Source: a virus
IMG/VR virus record: IMGVR_UViG_3300050503_000029
Length of the DNA stretch: 64,000 nucleotides
Direction: 5' to 3' (one strand)
The notes under the pieces were generated by a model. It saw only the letters and a list, made by a program, of their open reading frames with translations. It was not told where the DNA came from and ran no database searches. The position numbers were made by a program, and so were the translations under genes. Shown here one piece after another: positions 53,416 through 64,000 of the stretch; position 1 is the first letter of the stretch, and each line of letters starts with the position of its first letter.

Positions 53416-53428
53416 CCGACGCTGACAG

Positions 53429-53460
53429 AGGGGTGTGGGACTGACTCGCTCCACACCCCT
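53429..53460 (+). terminator. terminator hairpin preceded by GCTGACAGAG
   Basis: AGGGGTGTGG-N12-CCACACCCCT, a 10-bp perfect stem. Confidence 0.55.
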
Positions 53461-53480
53461 CGTAACCGAGGGAGAGAGTC

Positions 53481-53693
53481 ATGGCAAAGAGCGGTGCACA
53501 GGTCGCCCGAGATGCCGGCCTGGATCCGAAGGAGTTCCGTCGCTATCTGCGGTCGGTCCCGTCGTGGAACAACCCGGGGACTGGCAAGCGGTACATGTTC
53601 AGCGACCGGGACGAGGCGGCCGCACTCAAGGGGTACAAGGCGTGGAAAGCGGCACGCCAACCCGTCACCCGCACTAAGAAAGTCGAGGGTTGA
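53481..53693 (+). CDS. small protein carrying the shared DPK-FR-LR module
   Basis: 70 aa. SGAQVARDAGLDPKEFRRYLRS ... GKRYMFSDRDEAAALKGYKAW parallels segments in 51790..52518 and 52648..53415. Confidence 0.6.
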   Translation: MAKSGAQVARDAGLDPKEFRRYLRSVPSWNNPGTGKRYMFSDRDEAAALKGYKAWKAARQPVTRTKKVEG

Positions 53694-53719
53694 CAGACAC
53701 ATGTGATGGTCTGTAGTGT
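53690..53719 (+). promoter_or_regulatory. promoter TTGACA-N18-TAGTGT driving the tRNA cluster
   Basis: -35 at 53690..53695, -10 at 53714..53719, followed by TCTTCTCGTCAGTCCGACTGAC (cassette-type leader). Confidence 0.6.
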
Positions 53720-53798
53720 TCTTCTCGTCAGTCCGACTGACGCTCCTTGCCGGTCCCCTGCACTTCCCCCGAGGTGCAGGGGGCTAAGGAGAAGACTT

Positions 53799-53872
53799 GC
53801 CCTCATGGTCTAGAGGCTTAGGACGCTGCCCTCTCAAGGCAGAGGCCGCCGGTTCGAATCCGGCTGGGGGTA
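53799..53872 (+). tRNA. tRNA-Glu (anticodon CTC)
   Basis: Manual fold: acceptor GCCCTCA/TGGGGGT. D arm GTCTAGAGGCTTAGGAC. Anticodon stem CTGCC/GGCAG with loop CTCTCAA. T arm GCCGG-TTCGAAT-CCGGC. Discriminator A, no encoded CCA. Confidence 0.8.
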
Positions 53873-53993
53873 CGGTAGCCCGCTCCTCGGACGGGTGAAG
53901 GGAAGCACGGTCAGAAGGTTATGGGTGGCCGTGCACGGAGTCGGGGTTGAGAAGGGTTTCCCGGATCCACTAATTGCATAGTGTGAGAGTGAG

Positions 53994-54066
53994 GGCGGCA
54001 TACCTCAGTTGGTAGAGGAGTTCCCTTATAAGGTTCCAGTCGCGGGTTCGAGCCCCGCTGCCGCTA
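53994..54066 (+). tRNA. tRNA-like gene, anticodon TAT (Ile2-type), aberrant anticodon stem
   Basis: Acceptor GGCGGCA/TGCCGCT. D arm CCTC-AGTTGGTA-GAGG. T arm GCGGG-TTCGAGC-CCCGC. Loop CTTATAA. The anticodon stem GTTCC/GGTTC has two T:T mismatches. Confidence 0.55.
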
Positions 54067-54440
54067 CTCAGGAGTAGGCACCGATGCCATGAATCAATCC
54101 CCCTGGAAGTGGGGAGCGAATGAGCTAAGGATACTCCGAGAAGACCCTCCGCGGGGTTGCGTCCCTGTTGAGTGGCCATGGTCTGTGAGTCCCGAGTAAC
54201 GCCCTGGGCGAGAGTCCAGCCAGTCTCTGGCATGACGCGATGGCCAACCCCCTAGCTGGTGAGATTTGGTTCCCGCCGCTAGTCGACCGTCCGTGGGTCG
54301 TTGCCTCTTGGGGGAGGTCATGCGATCCACGGGCGGTTTTCGATAGACTCTCGTGGGGCTGGGGGTTGCGTCAACCGACGTGTCCACGGGCCCGGCCCCA
54401 CGAGAATGATTCACCCCCTCCCGAGACGAGTGAGGACTAG

Positions 54441-54572
54441 ATGAGGGCACGTGTACGCGGCGCCATCGTGTCGATGGGCGACCACGACAAGAACGACGAC
54501 GGCGACTCGGACGGCGGCAGCGGGACGACCAACCCGCAGGACGGCGACCACTGGGAAGACGAGGACGACTGA
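54441..54572 (+). CDS. 43-aa acidic mini-protein
   Basis: ATG after GAGTGAGGAC. Very high GC3. MRARVRGAIVSMGDHDKNDDGDSDGGSGTTNPQDGDHWEDEDD. Its stop overlaps the next ATG (ATGA type). Below the track size cut-off. Confidence 0.45.
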   Translation: MRARVRGAIVSMGDHDKNDDGDSDGGSGTTNPQDGDHWEDEDD

Positions 54573-54736
54573 TGTCCACTGACGTCCCCCGCCAGCACGA
54601 CGGCCACGAGGCGGCAACGCCTCCCGAGGCTGACCCGGTGATCCAGCAGGAGACCCGGGAGCACAACCCGGCGGAGCAGGTGCAGCCGCCGGACGCCGAC
54701 GCCGAGGACCTGTACGGACCTCCGCCCGGCATGTAG
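54572..54736 (+). CDS. 54-aa acidic Pro-rich mini-protein
   Basis: MSTDVPRQHDGHEAATPPEADPVIQQETREHNPAEQVQPPDADAEDLYGPPPGM. High GC3. Translationally coupled to the preceding mini-ORF. Confidence 0.45.
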   Translation: MSTDVPRQHDGHEAATPPEADPVIQQETREHNPAEQVQPPDADAEDLYGPPPGM

Positions 54737-54811
54737 TACCGCACGAGGGTGGGCCTCAGCCAAGGTGCTGGGGCTGTTATCTCTGGCAGGTCCCTAAAGC
54801 CTGCCCGCAAG

Positions 54812-54884
54812 CGCCCGTAGCTCAGTTGGCAGAGCAGGGGATTCTTAATCCTCGTGTCACTGGTTCAAGTCCAGTCGGGCGTAC
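54812..54884 (+). tRNA. tRNA-Lys (anticodon CTT)
   Basis: Acceptor GCGCCCG/CGGGCGT. D arm GCTC-AGTTGGCA-GAGC. Anticodon stem GGGGA/TCCTC with loop TTCTTAA. T arm ACTGG-TTCAAGT-CCAGT. Discriminator A. Confidence 0.85.
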
Positions 54885-54887
54885 AAG

Positions 54888-54956
54888 GTCGGGCAGGATT
54901 GGGGAGGCTGCTTCCACTCTATGCCCGGGCGGCTCTCGCCCGCTCCTGCCCGACCG
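54888..54956 (+). terminator. long structured hairpin after tRNA-Lys
   Basis: Perfect 12-bp outer arms GGTCGGGCAGGA / TCCTGCCCGACC (54888..54899 and 54945..54956) enclosing an inner GGGCG/CGCCC stem. Confidence 0.5.
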
Positions 54957-55143
54957 GTAGCCCCTCGTGTCCGCTGTTCGTACGGCAGCGCCGGCGTTAC
55001 GGTTGTCGGAGACCAAGCCGAGTGAAGTCCGACGACACGGGGATTAACGGGAGAGGTTCCCACTAGTGTAGGTCTGTGGGAAGTGAGTGGCCGGGACAGA
55101 CAAATACCGGTCGGCCTCTCCCGTCCTCATGGAAGGATTGGAC

Positions 55144-55788
55144 ATGGTCCTTTTCACACCGGACCAGCACAGGGCGTTCCGCAACGCGGAGCCGTTCCCG
55201 CATCTCGTCGTGGACGGCTTCTGGTCCGACGACGAACTCTCCATGGCGGCAGCCGAGTTCCCCGAGCCGGCGGACCCCAGGTGGAAGACGTACCGCGACC
55301 CCAAGGAGTACGGCAAGCGGTGTATGGATGAGCCCAGCACCTGGTCGAGGGGTGTGGGACAGCTTCTTGCCCACATGGCCTCCGAGGTCTTCTGTGAGTC
55401 CCTGGAAGACCTGACCGGCTTCGCCCCACTCACGGCGGACGCGGTCGGTGGCGGCATGCACATGACCGGCGAGGGTGGCCGGCTGGACATGCACGTGGAC
55501 TTCAACGTCCACCCCGACGGCAAGCGCCACCGCCGGCTCAACGTCCTCACCTTCCTGAACCCCGAGTGGGAGAAGGAGTGGGGAGGTGTCCTGTACCTGG
55601 GACCGAACCGGGACATCGAGGTCCTGCCGGTCTTCAACCGGATGGTGATCTTCGCGTGTTCGGACGAGTCGTGGCACGGGCACCCCGAGCCGATCGTGGG
55701 TGGGCACTGGCGGAAGAGCCTGGCCTGTTACTTCTACACCCCCGTGGCCGAGGAGCTCATCCCCCACACCACCACGTGGTTGACGTGA
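55144..55788 (+). CDS. 2OG-Fe(II) oxygenase (prolyl-4-hydroxylase-like)
   Basis: ATG 55144 after GGAAGGATTGG. HxD in RLDMHVDFN, distal His in ESWHGHPEP, basic residue in WRKSLACYFY. Confidence 0.8.
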   Translation: MVLFTPDQHRAFRNAEPFPHLVVDGFWSDDELSMAAAEFPEPADPRWKTYRDPKEYGKRCMDEPSTWSRGVGQLLAHMASEVFCESLEDLTGFAPLTADAVGGGMHMTGEGGRLDMHVDFNVHPDGKRHRRLNVLTFLNPEWEKEWGGVLYLGPNRDIEVLPVFNRMVIFACSDESWHGHPEPIVGGHWRKSLACYFYTPVAEELIPHTTTWLT

Positions 55789-56483
55789 CGGCGCCGTACC
55801 GAGTGGCGGTGATCCCGACCCGCGACCGCCACCGGATGCTGTTCGACGCGGTGCTCCCCCTCGTCTCGCAGGTCGACCGCGTGATCATCGTGGACAACCG
55901 CTCGGCACCGTACATCTCCCGCCACACGTGGGGCCTCGTGGAGTGGTGGGACGAGGACCTGATCCACGTCATCCCTCACAACGAGGACCCGCCCAACATC
56001 TCTCGCCTGTGGAACCTCGGCCTGGTCGCGGCTCAGCACATGGCGGAGGAAGAGGGCCTGTCGCAGTGGGACGTGGCCGTCCTGAACTCCGACGTGGTCG
56101 TGCCGTACGAGTGGGTGGAGAAGCTGTCCGCGGCGATGCGTTCAACGGACGCTGTCCTCGCGTACCCCGACCAGTTCGGGGGCAGCCAGCGCGTACTCCA
56201 CAAGGTCGCCGAGCCGGTGCCGCTCAACCAGAGGATCACGGGGTACGCCCACATGATCCGCGGTGAGTCGGGTCTCAGGTACGACGAGACCATGGCCTGG
56301 TGGTACTCCGACGACGACCTGGACTGGACGGCTCGCCAGCGCGGCGGAGCTCTCCTCGTGCCGGGGTTGAGTGTGGAACACCGTGACCCGAACGGGTCCA
56401 CGAACGCACGGCCCGAGCTCCAGGAGCAGGCCGGCCGCGACCGCCAGACGTTCATCACCAAGTGGGGAAGGGCACCGCACTAA
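55785..56483 (+). CDS. glycosyltransferase family 2
   Basis: GTG 55785 (GTGA overlap). VAVIPTRDRH N-terminus and DxD-type YSDDDLD. Confidence 0.8.
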   Translation: MTAPYRVAVIPTRDRHRMLFDAVLPLVSQVDRVIIVDNRSAPYISRHTWGLVEWWDEDLIHVIPHNEDPPNISRLWNLGLVAAQHMAEEEGLSQWDVAVLNSDVVVPYEWVEKLSAAMRSTDAVLAYPDQFGGSQRVLHKVAEPVPLNQRITGYAHMIRGESGLRYDETMAWWYSDDDLDWTARQRGGALLVPGLSVEHRDPNGSTNARPELQEQAGRDRQTFITKWGRAPH

Positions 56484-57025
56484 TGCACCTTGAGGCAAGA
56501 GCCGGTCTGGACCGGATGATCGACCACGTCGGCATCGACCGACAGTACCCGTACCGCTGCCTGGACCTGGGCGGGCGGGACATCAACGGTGGCATCCGCG
56601 ACCTCATCCCGAACGGGAAGTGGCAGGGAGTGGACATCGAGGCCGGCCCGGGAGTGGACCTCGTCCGCGACTGCACCATGGGTTGGCTGGACACCCTGCC
56701 GCGGTTCGACATCGTGGTGTGCACGGAGGTCCTGGAGCACGTGGAGAAGTGGCGGGACATCCTCCGCACCTGTGCCCAGGCCCTCGACACGATGGGCAGC
56801 CAGCTCCTGTTCGTGACCGCGGCGTCCACGGGACGACGTGCGCACGGAGCGAGTGGGGCAATGGACCCGGCCCCCGGCGAGTGGTACCGCAACGTGCCGG
56901 CAGAGGACGTGGCCGAGGAGCTGGGCCACCTGTTCAACAACTCCGGCGCGGAGTACAACCCGGTGCCTGGGGACGTGTACGCGTGGGCGACGCTGCCGCG
57001 ATGGGGAGTGGTCAACGGTGAGTAA
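56483..57025 (+). CDS. class I SAM-dependent methyltransferase
   Basis: ATG 56483 overlaps the TAA (TAATG). Motif I RCLDLGGRD, motif II-III IVVCTEVLEHVEKW. Confidence 0.75.
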   Translation: MHLEARAGLDRMIDHVGIDRQYPYRCLDLGGRDINGGIRDLIPNGKWQGVDIEAGPGVDLVRDCTMGWLDTLPRFDIVVCTEVLEHVEKWRDILRTCAQALDTMGSQLLFVTAASTGRRAHGASGAMDPAPGEWYRNVPAEDVAEELGHLFNNSGAEYNPVPGDVYAWATLPRWGVVNGE

Positions 57026-57617
57026 GCCGGAGATCACGGTGGTGGTCCCGTTCCACACCCACCGTGAAGTGAACGGCTACCTCCAGCGTGCGGTTGCCTC
57101 GATCCAGCGTCAGACCATGCCTGACGTCCAGGTGATCGCCATCCGCGACGAGGAGCGGCAGGGGGCGCCGGCCACGCGTCATGCCGGGCTCATGCTCGTG
57201 GACACGCCCTGGGTCGCGTTCCTCGACTCCGACGACGAGATGGACCCGTGCCACCTGGAGCGGATCTACGCGTGCGCCCAGGAGACGGGAGCGGACTACG
57301 TCTACCCGTGGTTCCGTGTGCAGGGCGGGAGCGACCCGTTCCCTCAGTTCTTCGGCCAGCCGTGGGACAACGCCCAGCCGCACCAGACCACAGTGGTGAC
57401 GCTCGTCCGTACTGAGCTGGCCCAGGCCGTCGGCTTCCACGACCCCTCGGGCAAGGGCAACTGGCCGGACGGCCAGCAGTACGGGGAGGACTGGCTGTTC
57501 ACCCTGGGGTGCATGGACAAGGGCGCGAAGATCGTCCACCACCCCGAGCGCACCTGGACGTGGCATCACCACGGGGCCAACTCCTCTGGCATGCCGGGTC
57601 GCGGGGACGCTCGCTAG
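57018..57617 (+). CDS. glycosyltransferase family 2
   Basis: GTG 57018. ITVVVPFHTH N-terminus, DxD in VAFLDSDDEMD. 199 aa. Confidence 0.8.
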   Translation: MSKPEITVVVPFHTHREVNGYLQRAVASIQRQTMPDVQVIAIRDEERQGAPATRHAGLMLVDTPWVAFLDSDDEMDPCHLERIYACAQETGADYVYPWFRVQGGSDPFPQFFGQPWDNAQPHQTTVVTLVRTELAQAVGFHDPSGKGNWPDGQQYGEDWLFTLGCMDKGAKIVHHPERTWTWHHHGANSSGMPGRGDAR

Positions 57618-57623
57618 TCCGCC

Positions 57624-57652
57624 TTGACACGGGGGAGCGCGGGGGATACTGT
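57624..57652 (+). promoter_or_regulatory. cassette promoter TTGACA-N17-TACTGT
   Basis: CGCCTTGACA context, -10 followed by TGTCCTTGTCAGCAAGAC. Confidence 0.55.
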
Positions 57653-57692
57653 TGTCCTTGTCAGCAAGACCGACGAGAGAAGGGCACACAGC

Positions 57693-58016
57693 ATGACCCG
57701 CGCGAACCCGAGTAATACGGACATCGCCCAGCAGTGGGCGGATCGCTACGTCGCCCAGCACGACTACCTCACTCGTGTGTACGCGGCACTGACCAACGAG
57801 TCTGGGCACCAGCTCATGACCACGGACAAGTGCACGGAGTGTGACTACGCCGTGACGGCCGACTACTTCGAGAACAGCGCCCACTGGATCATGTGGGACC
57901 CCCAGAGCCAGACCCACATCGTGGTGATCGGCTGTGAAGGGTACTGGCTGATCAACCCCGCGTCAGTGGGTCTCGACCCTCAGATGTGGTCGGGTATCGA
58001 GGGCGTCAACATCTGA
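57693..58016 (+). CDS. cassette 1 protein (107 aa), hypothetical
   Basis: ATG 57693 after GAGAGAAGGG, inside track ORF 57624..58016. Contains CTEC. Confidence 0.6.
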   Translation: MTRANPSNTDIAQQWADRYVAQHDYLTRVYAALTNESGHQLMTTDKCTECDYAVTADYFENSAHWIMWDPQSQTHIVVIGCEGYWLINPASVGLDPQMWSGIEGVNI

Positions 58017-58032
58017 TCAAGCCCTGACAGAG

Positions 58033-58073
58033 AGAGCGGGAGTCGCGCGACATGAGCGCGTGACTCTCGCTCT
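58033..58073 (+). terminator. cassette terminator
   Basis: Preceded by CCTGACAGAGAG. Stem AGAGCGGGAGTC.../...GACTCTCGCTCT. Followed by TTCGCATG. Confidence 0.55.
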
Positions 58074-58195
58074 TTCGCATGTCTGAGACGTCCTGAGAGC
58101 GCGTCTCACGCTCCTAACGCACTAGCGCGAGTCTCTGTGTCGAGTGCAGCGCGAGAGCGCGTCAGACGCGCGCACAGAGACTTCCTCGCTACGTG

Positions 58196-58224
58196 TTGAC
58201 ATGAGAGCCGGGACCGGGTAGTGT
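58196..58224 (+). promoter_or_regulatory. cassette promoter TTGACA-N17-TAGTGT
   Basis: -10 followed by TCTTCTTGTGAGCAAG. Confidence 0.65.
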
Positions 58225-58290
58225 TCTTCTTGTGAGCAAGCGAGACCGGCTCACAGAGCAAGGATTGTTAACTCAACAGGGAGCGTCACG

Positions 58291-58581
58291 ATGGCTGAGA
58301 GCATCAACCGGCTTACGAACGACGAGGCGCGCGAGGCGTTCGAGAACATGATCAACGTTCTCGGCTGCGAGGGTGCGGCGAGCATCGCGGAGAACTTCAT
58401 CGAGCGTGAGGCGGAGAAGGTCGCCGCTGACATCAAGGATCCTCAGAAGAGGAGGGCCGCTGAGCTGGTCGTCTTCCGGATCATCCTTGACAAGCTGGAG
58501 GCAGCGTATGCGGAAGAGCTTCACGTGAACGAGACCGGCGAACAGCCCCGCTACGACGCGGGTCCCGGCAACGTCGGCTGA
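58291..58581 (+). CDS. cassette 2 protein (96 aa), acidic helical
   Basis: ATG after CAGGGAGCGTCACG. Its leader TAACTCAACAGGGAGC is identical to the one before gene 19628. Confidence 0.6.
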   Translation: MAESINRLTNDEAREAFENMINVLGCEGAASIAENFIEREAEKVAADIKDPQKRRAAELVVFRIILDKLEAAYAEELHVNETGEQPRYDAGPGNVG

Positions 58582-58588
58582 CGAACAG

Positions 58589-58625
58589 AGAGGCCCCCTG
58601 TGTGTGACGGCACAGGCGGGCCTCT
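58589..58625 (+). terminator. cassette terminator
   Basis: AGAGGCCCCCTGTG-N8-CACAGGCGGGCCTCT with one bulge. Confidence 0.6.
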
Positions 58626-58645
58626 CGCGCGTTGCTGCGGACAGC

Positions 58646-58661
58646 GGATACCCGGCATACC
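58646..58661 (+). repeat. 16-bp quasi-palindrome GGATACCCGGCATACC (copy 1)
   Basis: Lies between the cassette terminator and the next promoter. Confidence 0.85.
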
Positions 58662-58712
58662 GGTGGTGTGGGTCAGGCTCTGAGACCGGCTCACAACGCC
58701 GGCGCGTCCTCC

Positions 58713-58741
58713 TTGACTCACGAGCCGGGCCCGTGTAGTCT
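58713..58741 (+). promoter_or_regulatory. cassette promoter TTGACT-N17-TAGTCT
   Basis: CTCCTTGACT context. Confidence 0.55.
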
Positions 58742-58782
58742 TTAGATGTGAGCCCGACAAGCGGGCCCCGAAGGGAGCGACA

Positions 58783-59034
58783 GTGGACGCCACTCAGAAG
58801 AAGATCGCCGAGATCATGGGGACGATCAACCTGGAAGAGCTGGCCCAGCAGATGGTCGACAAGATCTCCGCCGAGATCTGCGACCACGCCGACCTCATCG
58901 CGCTTGCGCGCATGGAGGAGAAGAAGATCAAGGACGCTGACAGCCACGACGCGCACAAGATCTACGACGCCGCCGAGGCCATGATCATCGCCGCCGTGCT
59001 CCGCCACATGACCAACATCAACGCCAAGAAGTGA
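58783..59034 (+). CDS. cassette 3 protein (83 aa), helical
   Basis: GTG after GAAGGGAGCGACA. Track ORF. Confidence 0.6.
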   Translation: MDATQKKIAEIMGTINLEELAQQMVDKISAEICDHADLIALARMEEKKIKDADSHDAHKIYDAAEAMIIAAVLRHMTNINAKK

Positions 59035-59047
59035 TCGGCCGCAAGTA

Positions 59048-59083
59048 GAGGGGGCCCCTGCTCACCCGAGGGGGGGCCTCCTC
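59048..59083 (+). terminator. cassette terminator
   Basis: GAGGGGGCCCC-N14-GGGGCCTCCTC followed by GTTTGGGTTT. Confidence 0.6.
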
Positions 59084-59104
59084 GTTTGGGTTTCACGTCC
59101 CGCC

Positions 59105-59134
59105 TTGCGCTGAGCGCGGAGCACGTGGTACGAT
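59105..59134 (+). promoter_or_regulatory. cassette promoter TTGCGC-N18-TACGAT
   Basis: CGCCTTGCGC context, followed by GACTATGTCAGCAAGCG. Confidence 0.5.
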
Positions 59135-59167
59135 GACTATGTCAGCAAGCGAACGAAGGAGCCCGAA

Positions 59168-59500
59168 GTGTACGAGATCGAGAACCCGAAGCGCGTGGAG
59201 ATCATCATCGCCACCGCGAAGATCGTGGGATTCCCCGTCACTGAACTGTCCGCCCTCGTGCTCGATGCCCTCGACGCCGACCACGACACCACGCTGTTCC
59301 CGATCTACAACGTCCTCCCCGACGCCGAGAACGCCGACCCGCGCGCGTTCATGATCTTCTTCCTCCACAACATGATCGGATCCGACGACGACCACGACTA
59401 CATCAGCCACGACCTCGACCACGCCACTCAGTCTCTCGACCCGTGCCCCGCTCACGCGACCGAGTGCGCCACGTGCTGTGAGCCCTGCCTGAACGACTGA
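59168..59500 (+). CDS. cassette 4 protein (110 aa), acidic, C-terminal Cys cluster
   Basis: GTG after GAAGGAGCCCGAA. Ends ...CPAHATECATCCEPCLND. Confidence 0.6.
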   Translation: MYEIENPKRVEIIIATAKIVGFPVTELSALVLDALDADHDTTLFPIYNVLPDAENADPRAFMIFFLHNMIGSDDDHDYISHDLDHATQSLDPCPAHATECATCCEPCLND

Positions 59501-59515
59501 CGCACCACACCAGCC

Positions 59516-59552
59516 GAGAGCGCGTCTCCTCACCCGAGGGGGCGCGCCCTCT
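59516..59552 (+). terminator. cassette terminator
   Basis: AGAGCGCGTCTCC-N8-GGGGGCGCGCCCTCT with a 2-nt bulge. Confidence 0.55.
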
Positions 59553-59599
59553 GGTGAGCGAAGGCCTGAGAGCGGCTGTGACAGCCGGCGACGGTCAGC

Positions 59600-59615
59600 G
59601 GATACCCGGGTATCG
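59600..59615 (+). repeat. 16-bp quasi-palindrome GGATACCCGGGTATCG (copy 2)
   Basis: 15 of 16 positions palindromic. Confidence 0.85.
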
Positions 59616-59667
59616 AGCGGGCAGCTAGCGCGGCTCAGATCGCCGTAGGATTCATCGGCGTGCCGCC

Positions 59668-59696
59668 TTGCATAGCGAGGGGAGAGCGGATAGACT
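59668..59696 (+). promoter_or_regulatory. cassette promoter TTGCAT-N17-TAGACT (class B leader CTTAC-TAC-GTAAG)
   Basis: CGCCTTGCAT context. The inverted repeat CTTAC/GTAAG at 59695..59707 overlaps the start region. Confidence 0.55.
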
Positions 59697-59737
59697 TACT
59701 ACGTAAGCAAGACAAGCCCGAGCGAGAGGCAAGATCC

Positions 59738-60031
59738 ATGACTGACCGCGCACCCCTCGACCACGCGAAGATCGCCGTCCGCGCCGCTGACATCGCCGCG
59801 CACCACCTGACCGCGTTCAACCCCGGCGACTTCCTCGACGCCCTTGAGATGTTCGGCAACAGCCTGACCCGCTTCGTCTGGGCGGCGATCGATGACAGCC
59901 GCGACGACGAGAAGCTGGACGACTACTTCACCGAGCTGTCCAGTGAAGAGTTCGCCGAGCGTTACGACGCCGTCGCCGAGATCCTGCTCACGATCTTCAC
60001 CGCGTTCCTCGCGCGACTGCCCCGCCGCTGA
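59738..60031 (+). CDS. cassette 5 protein (97 aa), acidic helical
   Basis: ATG 59738 after GAGAGGCAAG, inside track ORF 59660..60031. Confidence 0.6.
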   Translation: MTDRAPLDHAKIAVRAADIAAHHLTAFNPGDFLDALEMFGNSLTRFVWAAIDDSRDDEKLDDYFTELSSEEFAERYDAVAEILLTIFTAFLARLPRR

Positions 60032-60041
60032 CACCCTGACA

Positions 60042-60075
60042 GAGAGCGCCTCCTCTTCCGAGAGGGGGCGCCCTC
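60042..60075 (+). terminator. cassette terminator
   Basis: Preceded by CCTGACAGAGAG. Stem GAGAGCGCCTCCTCT-TCCG-AGAGGGGGCGCCCTC. Followed by GCATGG. Confidence 0.6.
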
Positions 60076-60102
60076 GCATGGGGAGCGCGGGGAATTTTGG
60101 AT

Positions 60103-60114
60103 GGCAACGTTGTC
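60103..60114. repeat. GGCAACGTTGTC palindromic motif abutting the -35
   Basis: Part of the conserved block TTTTGGATGGCAACGTTGTCAGGCCTTGC (compare 63036..63066). Confidence 0.75.
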
Positions 60115-60119
60115 AGGCC

Positions 60120-60148
60120 TTGCGCGGCACGACGCGGGGTGGTAAGCT
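60120..60148 (+). promoter_or_regulatory. cassette promoter TTGCGC-N17-TAAGCT (class B)
   Basis: The -10 is embedded in GGTAAGCTTACCTTGTAAGC. Confidence 0.55.
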
Positions 60149-60183
60149 TACCTTGTAAGCGAGAGAGCAGAGAGAGGGAGATC

Positions 60184-60405
60184 ATGGAGAAGCCCAGCCA
60201 CTTCGAGCGCAAGAACCCCGACGTGATCGGCAAGTTCATCAGCCTGACCGCCGAGCTCCTGTCCGCCGACATGACCCAGGCTGACTACGACAAGCTCCGC
60301 GAGATCGCCGGCATCCTGAACCCGGGCGGGGGAGCGTTCGGCTTCGTCGCTCGCCTGAACGGCGACGTGGAGCGTCTGCACCCCCACATCCAGCGCCGCG
60401 ACTGA
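60184..60405 (+). CDS. cassette 6 protein (73 aa)
   Basis: ATG 60184 after AGAGGGAGATC, inside track ORF 60097..60405. Confidence 0.6.
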   Translation: MEKPSHFERKNPDVIGKFISLTAELLSADMTQADYDKLREIAGILNPGGGAFGFVARLNGDVERLHPHIQRRD

Positions 60406-60417
60406 CCGCCCCTGACA

Positions 60418-60451
60418 GAGAGCCCGTCCTCACCTGAGAGGGCGGGTTCTC
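60418..60451 (+). terminator. cassette terminator
   Basis: Preceded by CCTGACA. 14-bp stem GAGAGCCCGTCCTC/GAGAGGGCGGGTTCTC. Followed by GCATGG. Confidence 0.65.
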
Positions 60452-60499
60452 GCATGGGCGCGGCCCTGAGAGCGCGCGAGACGAGGTGTGTGGGGCACA

Positions 60500-60515
60500 G
60501 GATACCCGGCATACC
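60500..60515 (+). repeat. 16-bp quasi-palindrome GGATACCCGGCATACC (copy 3)
   Basis: Identical to copy 1. Confidence 0.85.
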
Positions 60516-60587
60516 AGGCTCCGTCGCCGGCTCGCACGCGGCCGCTGAGAGCCTCCTAAGTTACTTGTCGGTAAGGCCCGTCTCGCC

Positions 60588-60616
60588 TTGACGCGGCTCC
60601 GCGTGGTTGGTAAGCT
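60588..60616 (+). promoter_or_regulatory. cassette promoter TTGACG-N17-TAAGCT (class B)
   Basis: CGCCTTGACG context. The -10 is embedded in GGTAAGCTTACTCCGTAAGC. The upstream block CTAAGTTACTTGTCGGTAAGG is shared with 61972..61990. Confidence 0.6.
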
Positions 60617-60655
60617 TACTCCGTAAGCACGAAACGCCGAGCAAGGAGAGATCAC

Positions 60656-60865
60656 GTGGGTATCCTCGACCGCTTCCGCCGCACTGCCGACTCGGGCGAC
60701 GGGCCGGGCGTTCCCGAGCCCGACCTGGGCCGCCCCTACGCGACCGTCCGTTACAAGAACGAGACGGGTGGGTACACCGAGGTTCAGGCGTACAGCGCCG
60801 TCCAGGCTGACGAGATCAAGGCCGATCACCCCGACGCGAAGATCACGCCGAAGCGCGGGCGCTGA
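60656..60865 (+). CDS. cassette 7 protein (69 aa)
   Basis: GTG after CAAGGAGAGATCAC. Track ORF. Confidence 0.55.
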   Translation: MGILDRFRRTADSGDGPGVPEPDLGRPYATVRYKNETGGYTEVQAYSAVQADEIKADHPDAKITPKRGR

Positions 60866-60874
60866 TCGGGTAGC

Positions 60875-60908
60875 AGGGGGCGAGTCGAGAAGTCATCGGC
60901 TCGCCCCT
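60875..60908 (+). terminator. cassette terminator overlapping the next -35
   Basis: AGGGGGCGAG-N15-CTCGCCCCT. The last stem base is the first T of TTGCGC. Confidence 0.55.
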
Positions 60909-60937
60909 TGCGCATGACGTCAGGCCCGTGGTAAGCT
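60908..60937 (+). promoter_or_regulatory. cassette promoter TTGCGC-N18-TAAGCT (class B)
   Basis: The -10 is embedded in GGTAAGCTTACTCCGTAAGC. Confidence 0.55.
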
Positions 60938-60975
60938 TACTCCGTAAGCAAGAACGACGACGAGAGGAACCGACC

Positions 60976-61110
60976 ATGATGAACCACCGCCAGCGCGACC
61001 CCGAGGGTCTGTGGGTGTTGCTCGCCGGCATGACCTTCATCGTGTTCCTGACCACCGGCGTGATCCTCGGCCCCGACGGGATCGCCGCCCTGTGGAACAT
61101 GATCTTCTGA
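60976..61110 (+). CDS. cassette 8 protein (44 aa), single-TM mini-protein
   Basis: ATG 60976 after GAGAGGAACCGACC. MMNHRQRDPEGLWVLLAGMTFIVFLTTGVILGPDGIAALWNMIF. Confidence 0.45.
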   Translation: MMNHRQRDPEGLWVLLAGMTFIVFLTTGVILGPDGIAALWNMIF

Positions 61111-61123
61111 TCCGCCGCTGACA

Positions 61124-61159
61124 GAGTGCCCCTGCCCTCGAAAGAGGGTGGGGGCGCTC
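61124..61159 (+). terminator. cassette terminator
   Basis: Preceded by GCTGACA. 16-bp stem GAGTGCCCCTGCCCTC-GAAA-GAGGGTGGGGGCGCTC. Confidence 0.6.
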
Positions 61160-61209
61160 GTATGGAGCGAGGCCCTGAGTCGTCCTGTGAGCCGGCGACG
61201 AGCCGCAGA

Positions 61210-61225
61210 GGATACCCGGGTATCC
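61210..61225 (+). repeat. 16-bp perfect palindrome GGATACCCGGGTATCC (copy 4)
   Basis: Fully self-complementary. Confidence 0.9.
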
Positions 61226-61299
61226 ACCGGCGGGGCTGACGGGCGCAGAGAGCCGCACAGGACTTTCTAAAGAATCTTGGAAGTCCCCCTCGTTTCGCC

Positions 61300-61328
61300 T
61301 TGACGGAGCGAGCGCGGTGCCGTAGTGT
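61300..61328 (+). promoter_or_regulatory. cassette promoter TTGACG-N17-TAGTGT
   Basis: CGCCTTGACGG context, followed by TATCCATGTCAGCACGACA. Confidence 0.65.
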
Positions 61329-61380
61329 TATCCATGTCAGCACGACAGAGCAACACAAACCCTGAGAGCGAGTGATTCAA

Positions 61381-61755
61381 ATGTCCGCCAAGAACTTCTC
61401 CCACGCCGCTTGCGACCACGCCTCCACCAAGGTCGCTCGTGCGAAGTGCCGCCGTGAGATGGCCCGCTCCATCGCCGCCCTCGTGAGCGTCGCCACCGTC
61501 GTCACCGAGTCCCCGATCATCACCGCGTGGAACTCGATGAAGACCGGCCCGCTGGAGCTGCTCCCCGCCCCCGTTCGCACCGACGTGACCGCCGAGAACT
61601 GGAGGGAGTTCAAGGGTCAGACCGTCTCCGTCGACCTGATCGGCGAGACCATCGAGGGTGAGATCACCGGGTGGAGCGCGAAGAACGTGCAGATCAAGAC
61701 CGACGGCAAGACCGTCCGCCACCCCGTCAGCATCGTGATCCGCGCGACCGTCTGA
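61381..61755 (+). CDS. cassette 9 protein (124 aa) with N-terminal H-x2-C-x-H-x9-C module
   Basis: ATG 61381 after GAGAGCGAGTGATTCAA. MSAKNFSHAACDHASTKVARAKCRRE... Confidence 0.6.
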   Translation: MSAKNFSHAACDHASTKVARAKCRREMARSIAALVSVATVVTESPIITAWNSMKTGPLELLPAPVRTDVTAENWREFKGQTVSVDLIGETIEGEITGWSAKNVQIKTDGKTVRHPVSIVIRATV

Positions 61756-61768
61756 TCCGACGCTGATA

Positions 61769-61809
61769 GAGAGCCCCTGAGAGACGCTGAGAGCGTCCCA
61801 GGGGCTCTC
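61769..61809 (+). terminator. cassette terminator
   Basis: Preceded by GCTGATA. 11-bp perfect outer stem GAGAGCCCCTG/CAGGGGCTCTC plus an inner GACGC/GCGTC stem. Followed by GCATGG. Confidence 0.65.
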
Positions 61810-61915
61810 GCATGGACGCGCCGGCACTCTCGTACACGCGAGACGTGCGAGGCGCTTAGAGGCGCGCACAGGGCCTCGGCTCTGTACGGCGCTCAGACGG
61901 AGGGTGTGGGACGCC

Positions 61916-61931
61916 GGATACCCGGCATACC
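61916..61931 (+). repeat. 16-bp quasi-palindrome GGATACCCGGCATACC (copy 5)
   Basis: Identical to copies 1 and 3. Confidence 0.85.
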
Positions 61932-62004
61932 TCCCCGCCTCACGCCGGCTCAGATCGCCGCCTGTGGCTTTCTAAGTTACTCGTGGGTAACCCCTCGATC
62001 TGCC

Positions 62005-62033
62005 TTGACGGCCCCGGGCTGGGCGCGTAGTGT
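62005..62033 (+). promoter_or_regulatory. cassette promoter TTGACG-N17-TAGTGT
   Basis: TGCCTTGACGG context, followed by TATCCATGTCAGCACGACA. Confidence 0.65.
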
Positions 62034-62073
62034 TATCCATGTCAGCACGACAACGACGACGAGGGAGCAAGCC

Positions 62074-62340
62074 ATGACGAAGACCACGACCTACACCGTC
62101 CGGATGATCATGGGGAACGACAAGTGCACCACTCAGACCACCGTCGAGAGCGACACCACCGAGAACGCGGCGCGTGAGGCGGAGATGAAGTGGACGGGGA
62201 TCACGGTTCGGATCGTCACCGTCGAGGGGCCCGACGGGTGTGACGTTGAGCTGTGCGAGGACGACGACCACTGGTGCACGACGGACGAGCGCCACGGGCA
62301 CCTGGAGAGCGACGGGACGTGCATGAACTGCCACTACTGA
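62074..62340 (+). CDS. cassette 10 protein (88 aa), Cys/His-rich
   Basis: ATG 62074 after GAGGGAGCAAGCC, inside track ORF 61906..62340. Ends ...HWCTTDERHGHLESDGTCMNCHY. Confidence 0.6.
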   Translation: MTKTTTYTVRMIMGNDKCTTQTTVESDTTENAAREAEMKWTGITVRIVTVEGPDGCDVELCEDDDHWCTTDERHGHLESDGTCMNCHY

Positions 62341-62361
62341 GAGAGGGAGAGAGACGCCGTT

Positions 62362-62392
62362 AGAGGGCCCTGAGCGTAGCTCAGGGCCTCTC
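62362..62392 (+). terminator. cassette terminator
   Basis: GAGGGCCCTGAGC-GTA-GCTCAGGGCCTC followed by TCGCATGG. Confidence 0.6.
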
Positions 62393-62471
62393 GCATGGAC
62401 GACCGGGCACTGAGAGACGCGCGCCGGCTGAGAGGCGCTTAGACGGGCGCACAGGAAGTTTCGGTCTCGCC

Positions 62472-62500
62472 TTGACGGAGCCGGCGGGACCGTGTAGTGT
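62472..62500 (+). promoter_or_regulatory. cassette promoter TTGACG-N17-TAGTGT
   Basis: CGCCTTGACGG context, followed by TCTTCTTGTCAGAACG. Confidence 0.65.
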
Positions 62501-62540
62501 TCTTCTTGTCAGAACGAAACGCCGAGCAAGGAGCCCGACC

Positions 62541-62882
62541 ATGAGCGAGATCATCGTCCGCGAGATGACCGACGTGACCCCCACTTGCGCCCTCTGCGGG
62601 TTCGTCATCGAGGACATCGACCTCTCCGAGGAGACTGCCCGAGGCCTGATCCACTTCGACCGCCAGTGCCCGAAGGGCGCCGAGAAGAAGGCCAAGCCGG
62701 CTCGCAAGATCGCCGCCGCGCCGAAGAAGTCCCCGGAGCGCGTCCTCGCCGAGGGTGCGGGAATCGTCGTCAAGGAGATGAAGATCGTGGGTGTCCGTGG
62801 CGCTCACGCCGAGTGCGACCACGCCGCGACCAAGAGCGCGCGTGCCGCGTGCCGCAAGGCGAAGGCTGCCGCCGCGAAGTGA
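62541..62882 (+). CDS. cassette 11 protein (113 aa) with C-terminal H-x2-C-x-H-x9-C module
   Basis: ATG 62541 after CAAGGAGCCCGACC. N-terminal CALC...CPKG, a lysine-rich linker, then C-terminal GAHAECDHAATKSARAACRKAKAAAAK. Confidence 0.6.
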   Translation: MSEIIVREMTDVTPTCALCGFVIEDIDLSEETARGLIHFDRQCPKGAEKKAKPARKIAAAPKKSPERVLAEGAGIVVKEMKIVGVRGAHAECDHAATKSARAACRKAKAAAAK

Positions 62883-62890
62883 CCAAGATC

Positions 62891-62926
62891 GAGAGCCCCT
62901 GCTCCCAGACGGGAGTGGGGGCCCTC
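62891..62926 (+). terminator. cassette terminator
   Basis: GAGAGCCCCTGCTCCC-AGAC-GGGAGTGGGGGCCCTC. Confidence 0.6.
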
Positions 62927-62974
62927 AGGTGGGCGAGGCTCTGAGAGCCCGCCTAAGAGCCTGTCGTGGGCCCA

Positions 62975-62990
62975 GGATACCCGGCATTCC
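62975..62990 (+). repeat. 16-bp quasi-palindrome GGATACCCGGCATTCC (copy 6)
   Basis: One substitution relative to copy 1. Confidence 0.8.
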
Positions 62991-63046
62991 ACCGAGGCGC
63001 TGCCGGCGTCAGAACGCCGTACAGGCCTCCCCAAGATTTTTTGGAT

Positions 63047-63058
63047 GACAACGTTGCC
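63047..63058. repeat. GACAACGTTGCC palindromic motif abutting the -35
   Basis: Part of TTTTGGATGACAACGTTGCCAGGCCTTGC. Confidence 0.75.
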
Positions 63059-63063
63059 AGGCC

Positions 63064-63092
63064 TTGCATCTGCCGTGGCACCCGTGTAATGT
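63064..63092 (+). promoter_or_regulatory. cassette promoter TTGCAT-N17-TAATGT
   Basis: Followed by TCTTCTTGTCAGCAAGACAACG. Confidence 0.6.
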
Positions 63093-63136
63093 TCTTCTTG
63101 TCAGCAAGACAACGACCCAGAGAGCGAGTGATCCAA

Positions 63137-63445
63137 ATGGCCGCCAAGAAGTGCAACTCTTGCAAGACCCGCCGCGCCTCCTCCGAGAACATGGCCGACC
63201 TTTGCAACCTGTGCTACGAATACGGCGCCTGGGAGAACCAGCACGAGGACGACAACCACGAGGGCGGCGAGAACCTGACCCCTGACTGCCTCGTCTGCCA
63301 CGGCACCGACCCCGCCACCGTCGAGCCGAAGGGTCACTCCAACGGGATCGCCAAGACCCACACCAGCCACGCTGAGTGCAGCCACCCGCGCACGAAGGCC
63401 GCGCGTGCGAAGTGCCGCAAGGAGCGCGCCCAGTCGGGCGAGTGA
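63137..63445 (+). CDS. cassette 12 protein (102 aa) with C-terminal H-x2-C-x-H-x9-C module
   Basis: ATG 63137 after GAGAGCGAGTGATCCAA, the same leader as cassette 9. CNSC...CNLC...CLVC, then SHAECSHPRTKAARAKCRKERAQSGE. Confidence 0.6.
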   Translation: MAAKKCNSCKTRRASSENMADLCNLCYEYGAWENQHEDDNHEGGENLTPDCLVCHGTDPATVEPKGHSNGIAKTHTSHAECSHPRTKAARAKCRKERAQSGE

Positions 63446-63455
63446 ATCCCCAGTA

Positions 63456-63486
63456 GAGGAGCCCCCGCGTGAGCGGGGGTTTCCTC
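63456..63486 (+). terminator. cassette terminator
   Basis: GAGGAGCCCCCGC-GTGA-GCGGGGGTTTCCTC followed by GTTTGGG. Confidence 0.6.
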
Positions 63487-63497
63487 GTTTGGGACGT

Positions 63498-63509
63498 GGC
63501 AACGTTGCC
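63498..63509. repeat. GGCAACGTTGCC perfect 12-bp palindrome
   Basis: Directly after the terminator. Fully self-complementary. Confidence 0.75.
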
Positions 63510-63556
63510 ATTCCGCGAGGCTCTGAGCGGCCGTCTAAGCGCCTCTGTGGGACCTT

Positions 63557-63572
63557 GGTATGCCGGGTATCC
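63557..63572 (-). repeat. 16-bp quasi-palindrome, inverted orientation (GGTATGCCGGGTATCC; copy 7)
   Basis: Exact reverse complement of GGATACCCGGCATACC. Confidence 0.85.
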
Positions 63573-63731
63573 ACCCCGGACACTGAGGCCGTCAGAGAGC
63601 CGCGCCGGCTAGAGCGTGTCAAGTGCGCGCGACGAGAGAGACGAGGAACGCCCCAGACGGCGCTCAGGCGTGTCTCTGACGTCCTGTGACGTGTCGCCGG
63701 CACGAGAGACTAGAGGCGCGTGTCGAGGCGC

Positions 63732-63753
63732 CCTAGCGAGCGCACAGAGCTTC
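63732..63753 (-). repeat. copy 3 (reverse strand) of the GAAGCTCTGTGCGCTCG element
   Basis: The reverse strand reads GAAGCTCTGTGCGCTCGCTAGG. The first 17 nt are identical to 689..705. Confidence 0.75.
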
Positions 63754-63809
63754 TTTGTACCGCGGATTGTACTGACCTAAAAAATCTTGGTCGTGACGGC
63801 TATCTCGCC

Positions 63810-63838
63810 TTGACGGCCGACGACGACCCGGGTAATGT
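63810..63838 (+). promoter_or_regulatory. cassette promoter TTGACG-N17-TAATGT
   Basis: CGCCTTGACGG context, followed by TCTTCCTGTCAGCACAACG. Confidence 0.65.
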
Positions 63839-63880
63839 TCTTCCTGTCAGCACAACGCAGCAACCGAGGGAGACACCGAG

Positions 63881-64000
63881 ATGAGCAAGATCCAGAGCCA
63901 CGAGAACTGCACCCACGAGTCCTCGAAGGCCGCCCGCGCCAAGTGCCGCCGCTCCCGCGCCAAGTTCGCCGACGCGTTCGCCAGCGCCCTGACCGACGGC
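63881..64000 (+). CDS. cassette 13 protein, N-terminal part (runs off the window), with N-terminal H-x2-C-x-H-x9-C module
   Basis: ATG 63881 after GAGGGAGACACCGAG. MSKIQSHENCTHESSKAARAKCRRSRAKFADAFASALTDG... Confidence 0.55.
   Translation, partial: MSKIQSHENCTHESSKAARAKCRRSRAKFADAFASALTDG

What the first reader, a model, noticed from the sequence alone, without database searches (positions are those of the whole stretch)
61402..63952. A portable 18-aa H-x2-C-x-H-x9-C module (H.xC.H..(T/S)K.ARA.CR(K/R)) on four otherwise different cassette proteins
The module reads SHAACDHASTKVARAKCRR (61402-61455, N-terminal) and AHAECDHAATKSARAACRK (62805-62858, C-terminal). It also reads SHAECSHPRTKAARAKCRK (63368-63421, C-terminal) and SHENCTHESSKAARAKCRR (63899-63952, N-terminal). 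The spacing of His, Cys, His and Cys is invariant, and the residues between them form a basic helix-like stretch. The module sits at either end of proteins whose remaining sequence differs, which implies domain shuffling. An HCHC arrangement could bind one Zn. The basic face could bind nucleic acid or a host target such as RNA polymerase. I do not recognise it as a named domain.
Basis: seen in the sequence. Interest (0 to 1): 0.7.

Follow-up and report, generated by a model that had tools for sequence, protein, structure and literature searches.

The report
Portable His-Cys mini-domain on actinophage early proteins
A 19-residue His/Cys-plus-basic-helix module, absent from the domain libraries searched, is attached to many unrelated small early proteins of Streptomyces phages; it is probably a tiny zinc finger that tethers them to nucleic acid, though that is inferred, not shown.

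Summary
The window is a cluster-BR Streptomyces phage, 96% identical to KimJongPhill. It holds exactly four H-x2-C-x-H-x9-C modules at the stated coordinates, against 0.085 expected by chance. The window end cuts the array: KimJongPhill has 10 copies in 11 consecutive genes and Zuko has 11.

A module profile finds 630 clusters (50% identity) among 1.84 billion proteins. All 237 proteins fetched keep the four His/Cys. The other near-invariant positions are Thr, Lys, Arg, Ala and Arg.

The 244 modules in those proteins are N-terminal in 198 cases, C-terminal in 26 and internal in 20, and some form tandem arrays. Recognisable partner domains are rare and mostly act on nucleic acid: HNH_3, endonuclease VII, Phage_zn_bind_8 and an Hfq/Sm-like barrel. 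Genomic copies were found only in Actinomycetota, and the one locus examined (L014) lies beside an integrase.

Pfam, NCBIfam, PDB sequences and Foldseek give no match. Only the function-unknown PHROGs 18656 and 1342 match. AlphaFold2 predicts a knuckle followed by a helix (pLDDT 84).

My best reading is a new short zinc-binding module whose basic helix tethers diverse early effectors to DNA or RNA. The module and its portability are shown. Zinc binding and the target are inferred.

"Otherwise different" is only partly right, because proteins 1 and 4 are also paralogous outside the module.

The parts
61399..61455 (+). Module copy 1 (SHAACDHASTKVARAKCRR), residues 7-25 of the 124-aa protein.
   Evidence: Regex hit. 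HMM score 41.8 bits. H8, C11, H13, T16, K17, R20, C23 and R25 are invariant in 45 homologues.
62802..62858 (+). Module copy 2 (AHAECDHAATKSARAACRK), 8 residues from the C-terminus of the 113-aa protein.
   Evidence: 37.0 bits. The orthologues in KimJongPhill gp96 and Zuko gp94 keep it.
63365..63421 (+). Module copy 3 (SHAECSHPRTKAARAKCRK), 7 residues from the C-terminus of the 102-aa protein.
   Evidence: 46.4 bits. It is invariant in 12 homologues retrieved with the N-terminal 75 aa only, and in 3 locus orthologues at 37-75% identity to the window protein.
63896..63952 (+). Module copy 4 (SHENCTHESSKAARAKCRR), residues 6-24 of a protein cut by the window end.
   Evidence: 52.5 bits. The first 40 aa are 100% identical to KimJongPhill gp94.
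61381..61755 (+). Gene 1 (gp98-like, 124 aa): N-terminal module, helical linker, C-terminal Sm/Hfq-like five-strand barrel.
   Evidence: Orthologue annotated in KimJongPhill. AF2 mean pLDDT 80.8, barrel about 95. Best Foldseek hits are Hfq, Lsm and RimP, E 2.5e-3, TMt 0.7-0.8.
62541..62882 (+). Gene 2 (gp96-like, 113 aa): N-terminal CxxC...H...C region, Lys/Ala-rich linker, C-terminal module.
   Evidence: Only weak sub-threshold Zn-ribbon matches.
63137..63445 (+). Gene 3 (gp95-like, 102 aa): two further invariant Cys/His clusters (C6 C9 C23 C26; H36 H41 C51 C54), then the C-terminal module.
   Evidence: Alignment A6. Full-length match to phrog_18656, E 1.9e-14.
63881..64000 (+). Gene 4 (gp94-like), 5' part only. 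It is a paralogue of gene 1.
61300..61328 (+). Host-type promoter-like site of gene 1 (TTGACG-N17-TAGTGT). Equivalent sites lie at 62005-62033, 62472-62500 and 63810-63838, with a degenerate one near 63064-63092.
   Evidence: Repeat family D1. Pattern search gives 10 hits against 1.5 expected; 9 of the 10 lie on the + strand between 51.6 and 64 kb.
61769..61809 (+). G+C-rich hairpin directly after the gene 1 stop codon. Equivalents lie at about 62363-62393, 62891-62926 and 63456-63486.
   Evidence: RNA folds of -32 to -48 kcal/mol, z-scores -2.1 to -5.1.

Best explanation
The module is an autonomous mini-domain of about 19-25 residues. A short knuckle (H-x2-C-x-H) is followed by an alpha-helix that starts at the invariant Thr-Lys and carries the fourth ligand, Cys.

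I infer that His, Cys, His and Cys chelate one structural Zn(II), which pins the knuckle onto the helix. The helix displays a conserved basic stripe: K+9, R+12, R+16 and R/K+19, counted from the first His. I infer that this stripe contacts a polyanion, most likely DNA and possibly RNA.

The module has been shuffled onto many unrelated effector domains. In this phage it sits on 10 of 11 consecutive small genes. Each gene has its own host-sigma-type promoter and hairpin terminator, so these are probably early, host-takeover genes. The module would act as a common address tag that concentrates different effectors on the same nucleic-acid target.

Shown: the module is real, is conserved at the protein level, is portable, is restricted so far to actinophages and actinobacterial genomes (beside an integrase at the one locus examined), and is not in the curated libraries searched.
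Inferred: Zn binding (about 0.7), nucleic-acid binding (about 0.45) and early expression.
For: Ligand conservation:
- H, C, H and C are invariant in 22 phage paralogues and in all 237 proteins fetched by profile searches.
- They are also invariant in families retrieved independently of the module: the gp98 family found by full-length search and the gp95 family found with N-terminal residues 1-75 only.

Selection acts on the protein:
- Paralogue identity by codon position is 0.67, 0.70 and 0.56.
- Arg is encoded by CGT, CGC, CGA and AGG.

Extent: 630 clusters at E <= 1e-3 among 1.84 billion representatives.

Fold: AF2 on the module alone gives pLDDT 83.8, with a turn at H-A-A and a helix from Lys onward. 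The same elements appear in the full-length model.

Basic positions: K 94%, R 99%, R 99%, R/K 91% and R/K 71% at +9, +12, +16, +17 and +19.

Partner domains:
- HNH_3 in two independent proteins, with a module before each nuclease domain (P0116; L004 4681-5574).
- Two Endonuclease_7 domains plus four modules (P0140).
- Phage_zn_bind_8, described as a putative DNA-binding zinc finger.
- An Sm/Hfq-like barrel.

Tandem arrays with a period of about 22 aa resemble zinc-finger arrays: L013 9031-9306 and L014 10729-10929.

Near-stand-alone proteins of 42-54 aa exist: P0064, P0144 and P0123.

Promoters and hairpins.
Against: - No metal, geometry or binding test was possible. The AF2 coordinates could not be inspected.
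- Foldseek found no structural analogue.
- Module pLDDT drops to 67-78 in the full-length model.
- Only about 9 of 87 longer carrier proteins have any Pfam partner, so the nucleic-acid theme rests on few cases.
- One carrier is a DUF2637 membrane protein.
- The strong terminal bias, 92% within 15 residues of an end, is not required for a DNA-binding finger.
- Conservation percentages from profile-selected hits are partly circular.
- The generic sigma-70 scan found no promoters. The promoter call rests on my own Streptomyces-style pattern.
Confidence: 0.45

Rival explanations
1. The module is a protein-protein docking domain, zinc-stabilised or not. It would bring many different early effectors to one shared host or phage protein, such as RNA polymerase or a sigma factor, a chaperone or protease, or an acidic surface of a nucleoid protein.
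For: The invariant exposed K/R/R residues across 630 clusters imply one conserved ligand. Most carriers are tiny proteins with no nucleic-acid domain. They sit in an apparently early, host-takeover-like gene array. The terminal position suits a docking tag.
Against: No candidate partner emerged. Fusion to HNH and endonuclease VII nucleases, and tandem arrays, are easier to explain by nucleic-acid binding.
Confidence: 0.25
2. The His2Cys2 set binds a redox-active cofactor or acts as a thiol switch. Possibilities are a Rieske-like or other Fe-S centre, Cu, or a labile Zn. This would make the carrier proteins responsive to the host's redox or metal state.
For: Two His plus two Cys is also the Rieske ligand set, and the module contains C-x-H (sequence). 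Labile HCHC zinc fingers exist in other viruses: the RYMV P1 preprint 10.1101/2020.02.24.963488 appeared, and I read its abstract only.
Against: The spacing does not fit the Rieske motif C-x-H-x15-17-C-x2-H. A 19-residue knuckle-helix cannot form the Rieske beta fold. No Fe-S family match was found.
Confidence: 0.08
3. The module is a terminal processing or degradation tag (a degron or cleavage signal) that times the removal of early proteins.
For: 224 of 244 modules (92%) lie within 15 residues of a terminus.
Against: Internal copies and tandem arrays exist, and stand-alone 42-aa proteins would then be nothing but tag. The invariant metal-ligand pattern and confident fold are unusual for a degron.
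Confidence: 0.07
4. It is a chance pattern, a low-complexity effect, or a nucleotide-level element (regulatory RNA or recombination site) whose translation is incidental.
For: The copies form a DNA repeat family of 61-70% identity (D2). They lie in a region with much repeated regulatory DNA.
Against: Four matches were observed against 0.085 expected. Third codon positions are the least conserved and synonymous codons vary. The module occurs at the 5' or 3' end of genes, always in frame. There are 630 protein clusters.
Confidence: 0.01

Closest known systems
PHROG families phrog_18656 and phrog_1342 (function unknown)
   Same: All ten KimJongPhill carrier proteins hit phrog_18656 and nine of them also hit phrog_1342, through the module region, at E 1e-2 to 1e-14. 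The sequences are therefore already clustered in a phage protein catalogue.
   Different: PHROGs are whole-protein clusters with no annotation. The module is not delineated there as a portable domain, and no function or metal site is recorded.
Short zinc-binding modules: the retroviral-type CCHC zinc knuckle, treble-clef fingers and 'short zinc-binding loops' (classification recalled from my own knowledge: Krishna, Majumdar and Grishin 2003)
   Same: The size is about 20 residues. There are four Cys/His ligands, three of them close together in a loop and one on a following helix. The flanks are basic. Tandem arrays occur, as do fusions to nucleases.
   Different: The ligand order and spacing, H-x2-C-x-H-x9-C, match none of these; CCHC is C-x2-C-x4-H-x4-C. 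There is no Pfam, NCBIfam or PDB sequence match and no Foldseek match. Metal binding is unproven.
Pfam PF24623 Phage_zn_bind_8 (putative DNA-binding phage zinc finger)
   Same: It is a small actinophage Cys/His domain. It is found in the same proteins as the module (P0069, P0078).
   Different: It is a separate domain. In those proteins it occupies residues 7-60, and the HCHC module follows at the C-terminus. The module itself does not match the PF24623 profile.
DNA-binding add-on modules of homing endonucleases (NUMODs, the I-TevI zinc finger, AP2; recalled from my own knowledge)
   Same: Small modules are placed before or after HNH-type catalytic domains, sometimes repeated. L004 4681-5574 is (module + HNH_3) x 2, and P0116 has the same layout.
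   Different: There is no sequence relationship. Most carriers of this module are not nucleases.
N-terminal arginine-rich motifs of lambdoid N antiterminators (recalled from my own knowledge)
   Same: A short, N-terminal, Arg-rich helix on early phage proteins. The cassette transcripts here carry conserved hairpins.
   Different: N-type motifs have no His/Cys ligands. No RNA target was tested.

Membership tests
phrog_18656 / phrog_1342 (uncharacterised phage protein clusters) | A significant profile match to the PHROG HMM. | tested here: met
   Window gene 3's orthologue scores E 1.9e-14 over residues 6-100. The other carriers score E 1e-2 to 1e-7, through the module only.
Any curated Pfam or NCBIfam zinc-finger family | A profile match above the curated cut-off that covers the module. 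| tested here: not met
   No family covers the module, even at E <= 1. Weak sub-threshold hits such as Zn_Ribbon_TF and HVO_0649 lie in other parts of gene 2.
CCHC zinc knuckle | Ligand pattern C-x2-C-x4-H-x4-C. | tested here: not met
   The observed invariant pattern is H-x2-C-x-H-x9-C in 244 of 244 instances.
ZAS anti-sigma motif | H-x3-C-x2-C with an upstream Cys or His, in an anti-sigma helical domain. | tested here: not met
   The spacing differs, and there is no anti-sigma (zf-HC2 / RsrA-type) Pfam match.
Rieske-type 2Fe-2S centre | C-x-H-x15-17-C-x2-H on a beta-sandwich fold. | tested here: not met
   Only the C-x-H element is shared. AF2 predicts a knuckle plus helix, not a beta fold.
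Structural zinc finger (generic) | Four Cys/His ligands invariant across divergent homologues. | tested here: met
Structural zinc finger (generic) | Stoichiometric Zn(II) with tetrahedral ligand geometry. | not testable with these tools
   There is no access to model coordinates and no experiment. AF2 gives only pLDDT and secondary structure.
Nucleic-acid-binding domain (generic) | Direct binding to DNA or RNA. | not testable with these tools
   The support is indirect only: the basic stripe, nuclease and Sm-like partners and tandem arrays.

The most novel reading that the evidence does not exclude
The HCHC module is a previously unrecognised class of mini zinc finger. Actinophages would use it as a universal address tag: one conserved docking surface that delivers a combinatorially shuffled repertoire of early host-takeover effectors to a single host target, such as the nucleoid, a specific DNA or RNA structure, or the transcription machinery. 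Defining its ligand would then reveal the targeting logic of several hundred protein families of unknown function at once.
Probability: 0.3. Interest if true: 0.75.

Novelty: new variant of a known kind. Interest (0 to 1): 0.6.

Why it matters
Most early genes of actinobacteriophages are small proteins with no known function. Here one short, sharply conserved module links at least 630 such protein clusters, including about ten genes per cluster-BR phage genome. It gives a single, cheap experimental handle: a 20-40-residue peptide for metal analysis, nucleic-acid binding and pull-downs. If the module is a targeting tag, identifying its ligand would show where a large share of Streptomyces-phage early proteins act. 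It would also supply a compact fusion tag for Streptomyces biology. At minimum it deserves a curated domain entry, since it is absent from Pfam and NCBIfam.

Tried and rejected
- Pfam, NCBIfam, PDB sequence search and Foldseek (PDB) on the module gave no match.
- Foldseek against BFVD with the gene 1 model returned only its own orthologue, the paralogue gp92 and generic small barrels.
- tblastn of short module queries against the INPHARED phage collection found nothing or only the direct orthologue, probably because of the low-complexity filter. It therefore gave no survey of isolated phages.
- The generic sigma-70 and terminator scan found no promoters, because the -10 element here is TAGTGT-like. 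I replaced it with a pattern search.
- The intergenic palindrome GGATACCCGGCATACC as a possible target of the module: it occurs only in BR-like phages, not in the 59-kb phages that also carry module arrays. It does not co-vary with the module.
- A weak cytochrome c3 hit of gene 3 (E 0.006): I rejected it as Cys/His compositional similarity (CxxCH) in a protein I take to be cytoplasmic (my inference).
- Literature searches for the motif, the PHROG or Pfam identifiers and cluster-BR phages found no description of the module.
- A DNA-level explanation was rejected by codon analysis.
- A Tat-signal-like reading of 'CRR + hydrophobic helix' in gene 1 was rejected, because C-terminal and most other copies have no hydrophobic segment after the module.
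Full report
**What the window is.** Window 58000-64000 is 96.4% identical to Streptomyces phage KimJongPhill (MW822144, genus Zukovirus) and 81% identical to phage Zuko, in reverse-complement orientation. Window 1-25000 matches KimJongPhill 51109-26141. The window is therefore a circularly permuted copy of a closely related phage of about 82 kb, and the record's end junction lies near window 51,150. The two isolates are the representative members of Actinobacteriophage cluster BR (PMC10690885). A protein 100% identical to window gene 1 lies on an 82,377-base metagenome contig.

**Checking the observation.**
- A six-frame scan gives exactly four H..C.H.{9}C matches, all on the + strand at 61402, 62805, 63368 and 63899, with the sequences the finder reported.
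- Triplet shuffles of the window give a mean of 0.085 matches.
- A profile HMM of the module scores the four sites at 37-52 bits, and nothing else in the six-frame window exceeds 8.5 bits.
- The genes are 61381-61755 (124 aa), 62541-62882 (113 aa), 63137-63445 (102 aa) and 63881 to beyond 64000. All have annotated orthologues in KimJongPhill (gp98, 96, 95, 94) and in Zuko.
- The window end hides most of the array. KimJongPhill carries the module in gp98, 96, 95, 94, 93, 92, 91, 90, 89 and 88, which is 10 of 11 consecutive genes. Zuko carries it in 11 genes.
- With the module masked, gene 1 and gene 4 still align at 32% identity over 90 aa (E 8e-6), and gene 1 aligns weakly to gp92. "Otherwise different" therefore holds for genes 2 and 3 but not for the pair 1 and 4.

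**Anatomy of the module.**
- In 22 phage copies the invariant residues are H, C, H, R, C and R, and the near-invariant ones are T, K and A.
- Over 244 instances the consensus, numbered from the first His as 0, is (T/S)(S/A)-H-A-N-C-T-H-P-A-T-K-A-A-R-A-(K/A)-C-R-(R/K)-x-R.
- The frequencies are T+8 98%, K+9 94%, R+12 99%, A+13 93%, R+16 99%, R/K+17 91% and R/K+19 71%.
- These percentages are partly circular, because the proteins were retrieved with the profile.
- Two independent tests remove that circularity. The gp98 family was retrieved by full-length search and is dominated by its C-terminal barrel. It keeps H8, C11, H13, T16, K17, R20, C23 and R25 invariant in 45 sequences, although the linker is full of indels.
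- The gp95 family was retrieved with residues 1-75 only, so the module was excluded from the query. It keeps the module invariant in all 12 hits, in Zuko, in L016, and in a 37%-identical protein of a different, 59.8-kb phage.
- Selection acts on the protein. Paralogue identity is 0.67, 0.70 and 0.56 at codon positions 1, 2 and 3, and the invariant Arg uses CGT, CGC, CGA and AGG.

**Predicted fold.**
- AlphaFold2 on the module alone (32 aa, 100-sequence alignment) gives mean pLDDT 83.8, with about 90 over the core. It predicts a one-turn element at H-A-A, a loop, and a helix that begins at the Lys after the invariant Thr and runs through the last Cys.
- The full-length gene 1 model shows the same elements at lower confidence (67-78). 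A helical linker follows, then a five-strand barrel at pLDDT about 95.
- On a helical wheel (my inference), K+9, R+12, R+16 and R+19 fall within an arc of about 80 degrees. They lie next to the face that carries Cys+15 and the small residues A+11 and A+18.
- This fits a zinc-pinned knuckle that packs on one face of the helix, with a conserved basic stripe exposed beside it.
- Foldseek finds no PDB analogue for the 32-residue model.

**Distribution.**
- An exhaustive HMMER search of 1.84 billion representative proteins finds 630 clusters at E <= 1e-3.
- The indexed search finds 107 proteins. The only names given by a source are hypothetical proteins of Streptomyces sp. OP7 and Frankia casuarinae.
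- All 237 fetched proteins keep the four ligands. Among the 244 module instances, 198 are N-terminal (within 15 residues of the start), 26 are C-terminal and 20 are internal. The median protein length is 92 aa.
- In GTDB species genomes, a single-pattern scan finds 13 loci, all in Actinomycetota: Streptomyces, Frankia, Pseudonocardia, Nocardiopsis and Actinacidiphila.
- L014 has a tyrosine integrase, HTH_31/DUF5753 and DUF6879 just upstream of five modules, so it is an integrated element.
- IMG/VR yields BR-like contigs (L016, nine modules) and a second phage group of about 59 kb (L018, eight modules in tandem genes).

**What it is fused to.** Most carriers have no recognisable partner. Of 87 carriers of at least 100 aa, only about nine have a Pfam hit: Phage_zn_bind_8 in three, DUF2786 in two, and Endonuclease_7, HNH_3 and Anti-TRAP/DnaJ-CxxCxGxG in one each. 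The informative cases are these:
- P0116 and L004 4681-5574 place a module before each HNH_3 nuclease domain. L004 is (module + HNH_3) x 2, E 2.7e-14.
- P0140 has two endonuclease VII domains and four modules, three of them in tandem at the C-terminus.
- L013 9031-9306 packs three consecutive modules into 91 aa, and L014 10729-10929 packs two into 66 aa, with a period of about 22 residues.
- Gene 1's barrel best matches Hfq, Lsm and RimP in Foldseek: E 2.5e-3, TMt 0.7-0.8, rmsd 1.5-1.9 A.
- Several element-borne carriers have repeated segments that look like winged helices by eye; Pfam gives only sub-threshold wHTH hits for two of them (FaeA, DUF977).
- One carrier is a DUF2637 membrane protein.
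- Proteins of 42-54 aa are little more than the module.

**Genomic setting.**
- Each window gene is preceded by a member of a repeat family, GCCTTGAC-N18-TAGTGTT...TGTCAGCA. TTGAC-N18-TA(G/A)TNT occurs 10 times against 1.5 expected, and 9 of the 10 sites lie on the + strand between 51.6 and 64 kb.
- From my own knowledge this resembles the Streptomyces HrdB consensus. It implies transcription by unmodified host polymerase, and therefore early expression. That is an inference.
- Each gene is followed by a strong G+C hairpin.

**Interpretation.**
- Shown: a real, ancient, protein-level module that is portable between termini and between unrelated proteins. So far it is confined to actinophages and actinobacterial genomes (beside an integrase at the one locus examined). 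It is absent from Pfam, NCBIfam and the PDB, and is represented only inside two function-unknown PHROGs.
- Inferred with fair confidence: a structural Zn site formed by the invariant H, C, H and C.
- Inferred with moderate confidence: the basic helix binds nucleic acid, and the module acts as a shared tether for diverse early effectors. The nuclease fusions, the zinc-finger-like tandem arrays and the Sm-like partner point this way, but they are few.
- The main rival is a protein-docking tag for a common host target. A redox or Fe-S role and a terminal degron are less likely.
- Chance and DNA-level explanations are excluded.

**Literature.** I found no description of the motif.

Noticed in passing
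window 58646-58661, 60500-60515, 61210-61225, 61916-61931, 62975-62990, 63557-63572: A near-palindromic 16-mer, GGATACCCGG(C/G)(A/T)AT(A/C)CC, recurs in the spacers between cassette genes: 7 strand-hits against 0.08 expected. It is also present in KimJongPhill, Zuko and L016, but not in the 59-kb phages. It is a candidate operator for an unknown regulator.
   Followed up: partly
window 51666-63838, + strand: There is an array of host-type promoter-like sites, TTGAC-N18-TA(G/A)TNT, each followed by a conserved TGTCAGCA(A/C)GA leader. Each small gene ends in a strong G+C hairpin without a U tract. A second leader class, TGGTAAGCTTACNNCGTAAGCA, lies at 59126-60954 (family D9).
   Followed up: partly
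window 61381-61755 (residues about 70-124): The C-terminal domain is confidently predicted as a helix plus a five-strand barrel. Its best structural matches are Hfq, Lsm and RimP. Paralogues are gp94 and gp92. From my own knowledge, Actinomycetota lack a recognisable Hfq, so a phage-borne Sm-like protein there is notable.
   Followed up: partly
window 63137-63445: Besides the module, this 102-aa protein has two more invariant Cys/His clusters: C6 C9 C23 C26, and H36 H41 C51 C54. That suggests three metal sites in one tiny protein. A weak cytochrome c3 hit is probably compositional.
   Followed up: partly
window 62075-62340: The one gene inside the array without the module is the gp97 orthologue by position. 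It has a Cys/His-rich C-terminus, CDVELCEDDDHWCTTDERHGHLESDGTCMNCHY, of unknown nature.
   Followed up: no
window about 51150: The window runs across the position that corresponds to the ends of the linear KimJongPhill record. Window 1 corresponds to record 51109 and window 58000 to record 75676. The source sequence is therefore circularly permuted or assembled across the termini.
   Followed up: partly
window 61359-61394 and 63115-63150: The 5'UTR plus the first five codons of gene 1 and gene 3 are 92% identical over 36 nt, although their modules sit at opposite ends of the proteins (family D19). Cassette 5' ends seem to have been duplicated independently of the coding bodies.
   Followed up: no
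L004 4681-5574; L013 9031-9306; L014 10729-10929: Streptomyces and Nocardiopsis genome loci (L014 beside an integrase) hold (module + HNH_3) x 2 endonucleases and mini-proteins made only of two or three tandem, more divergent modules.
   Followed up: partly
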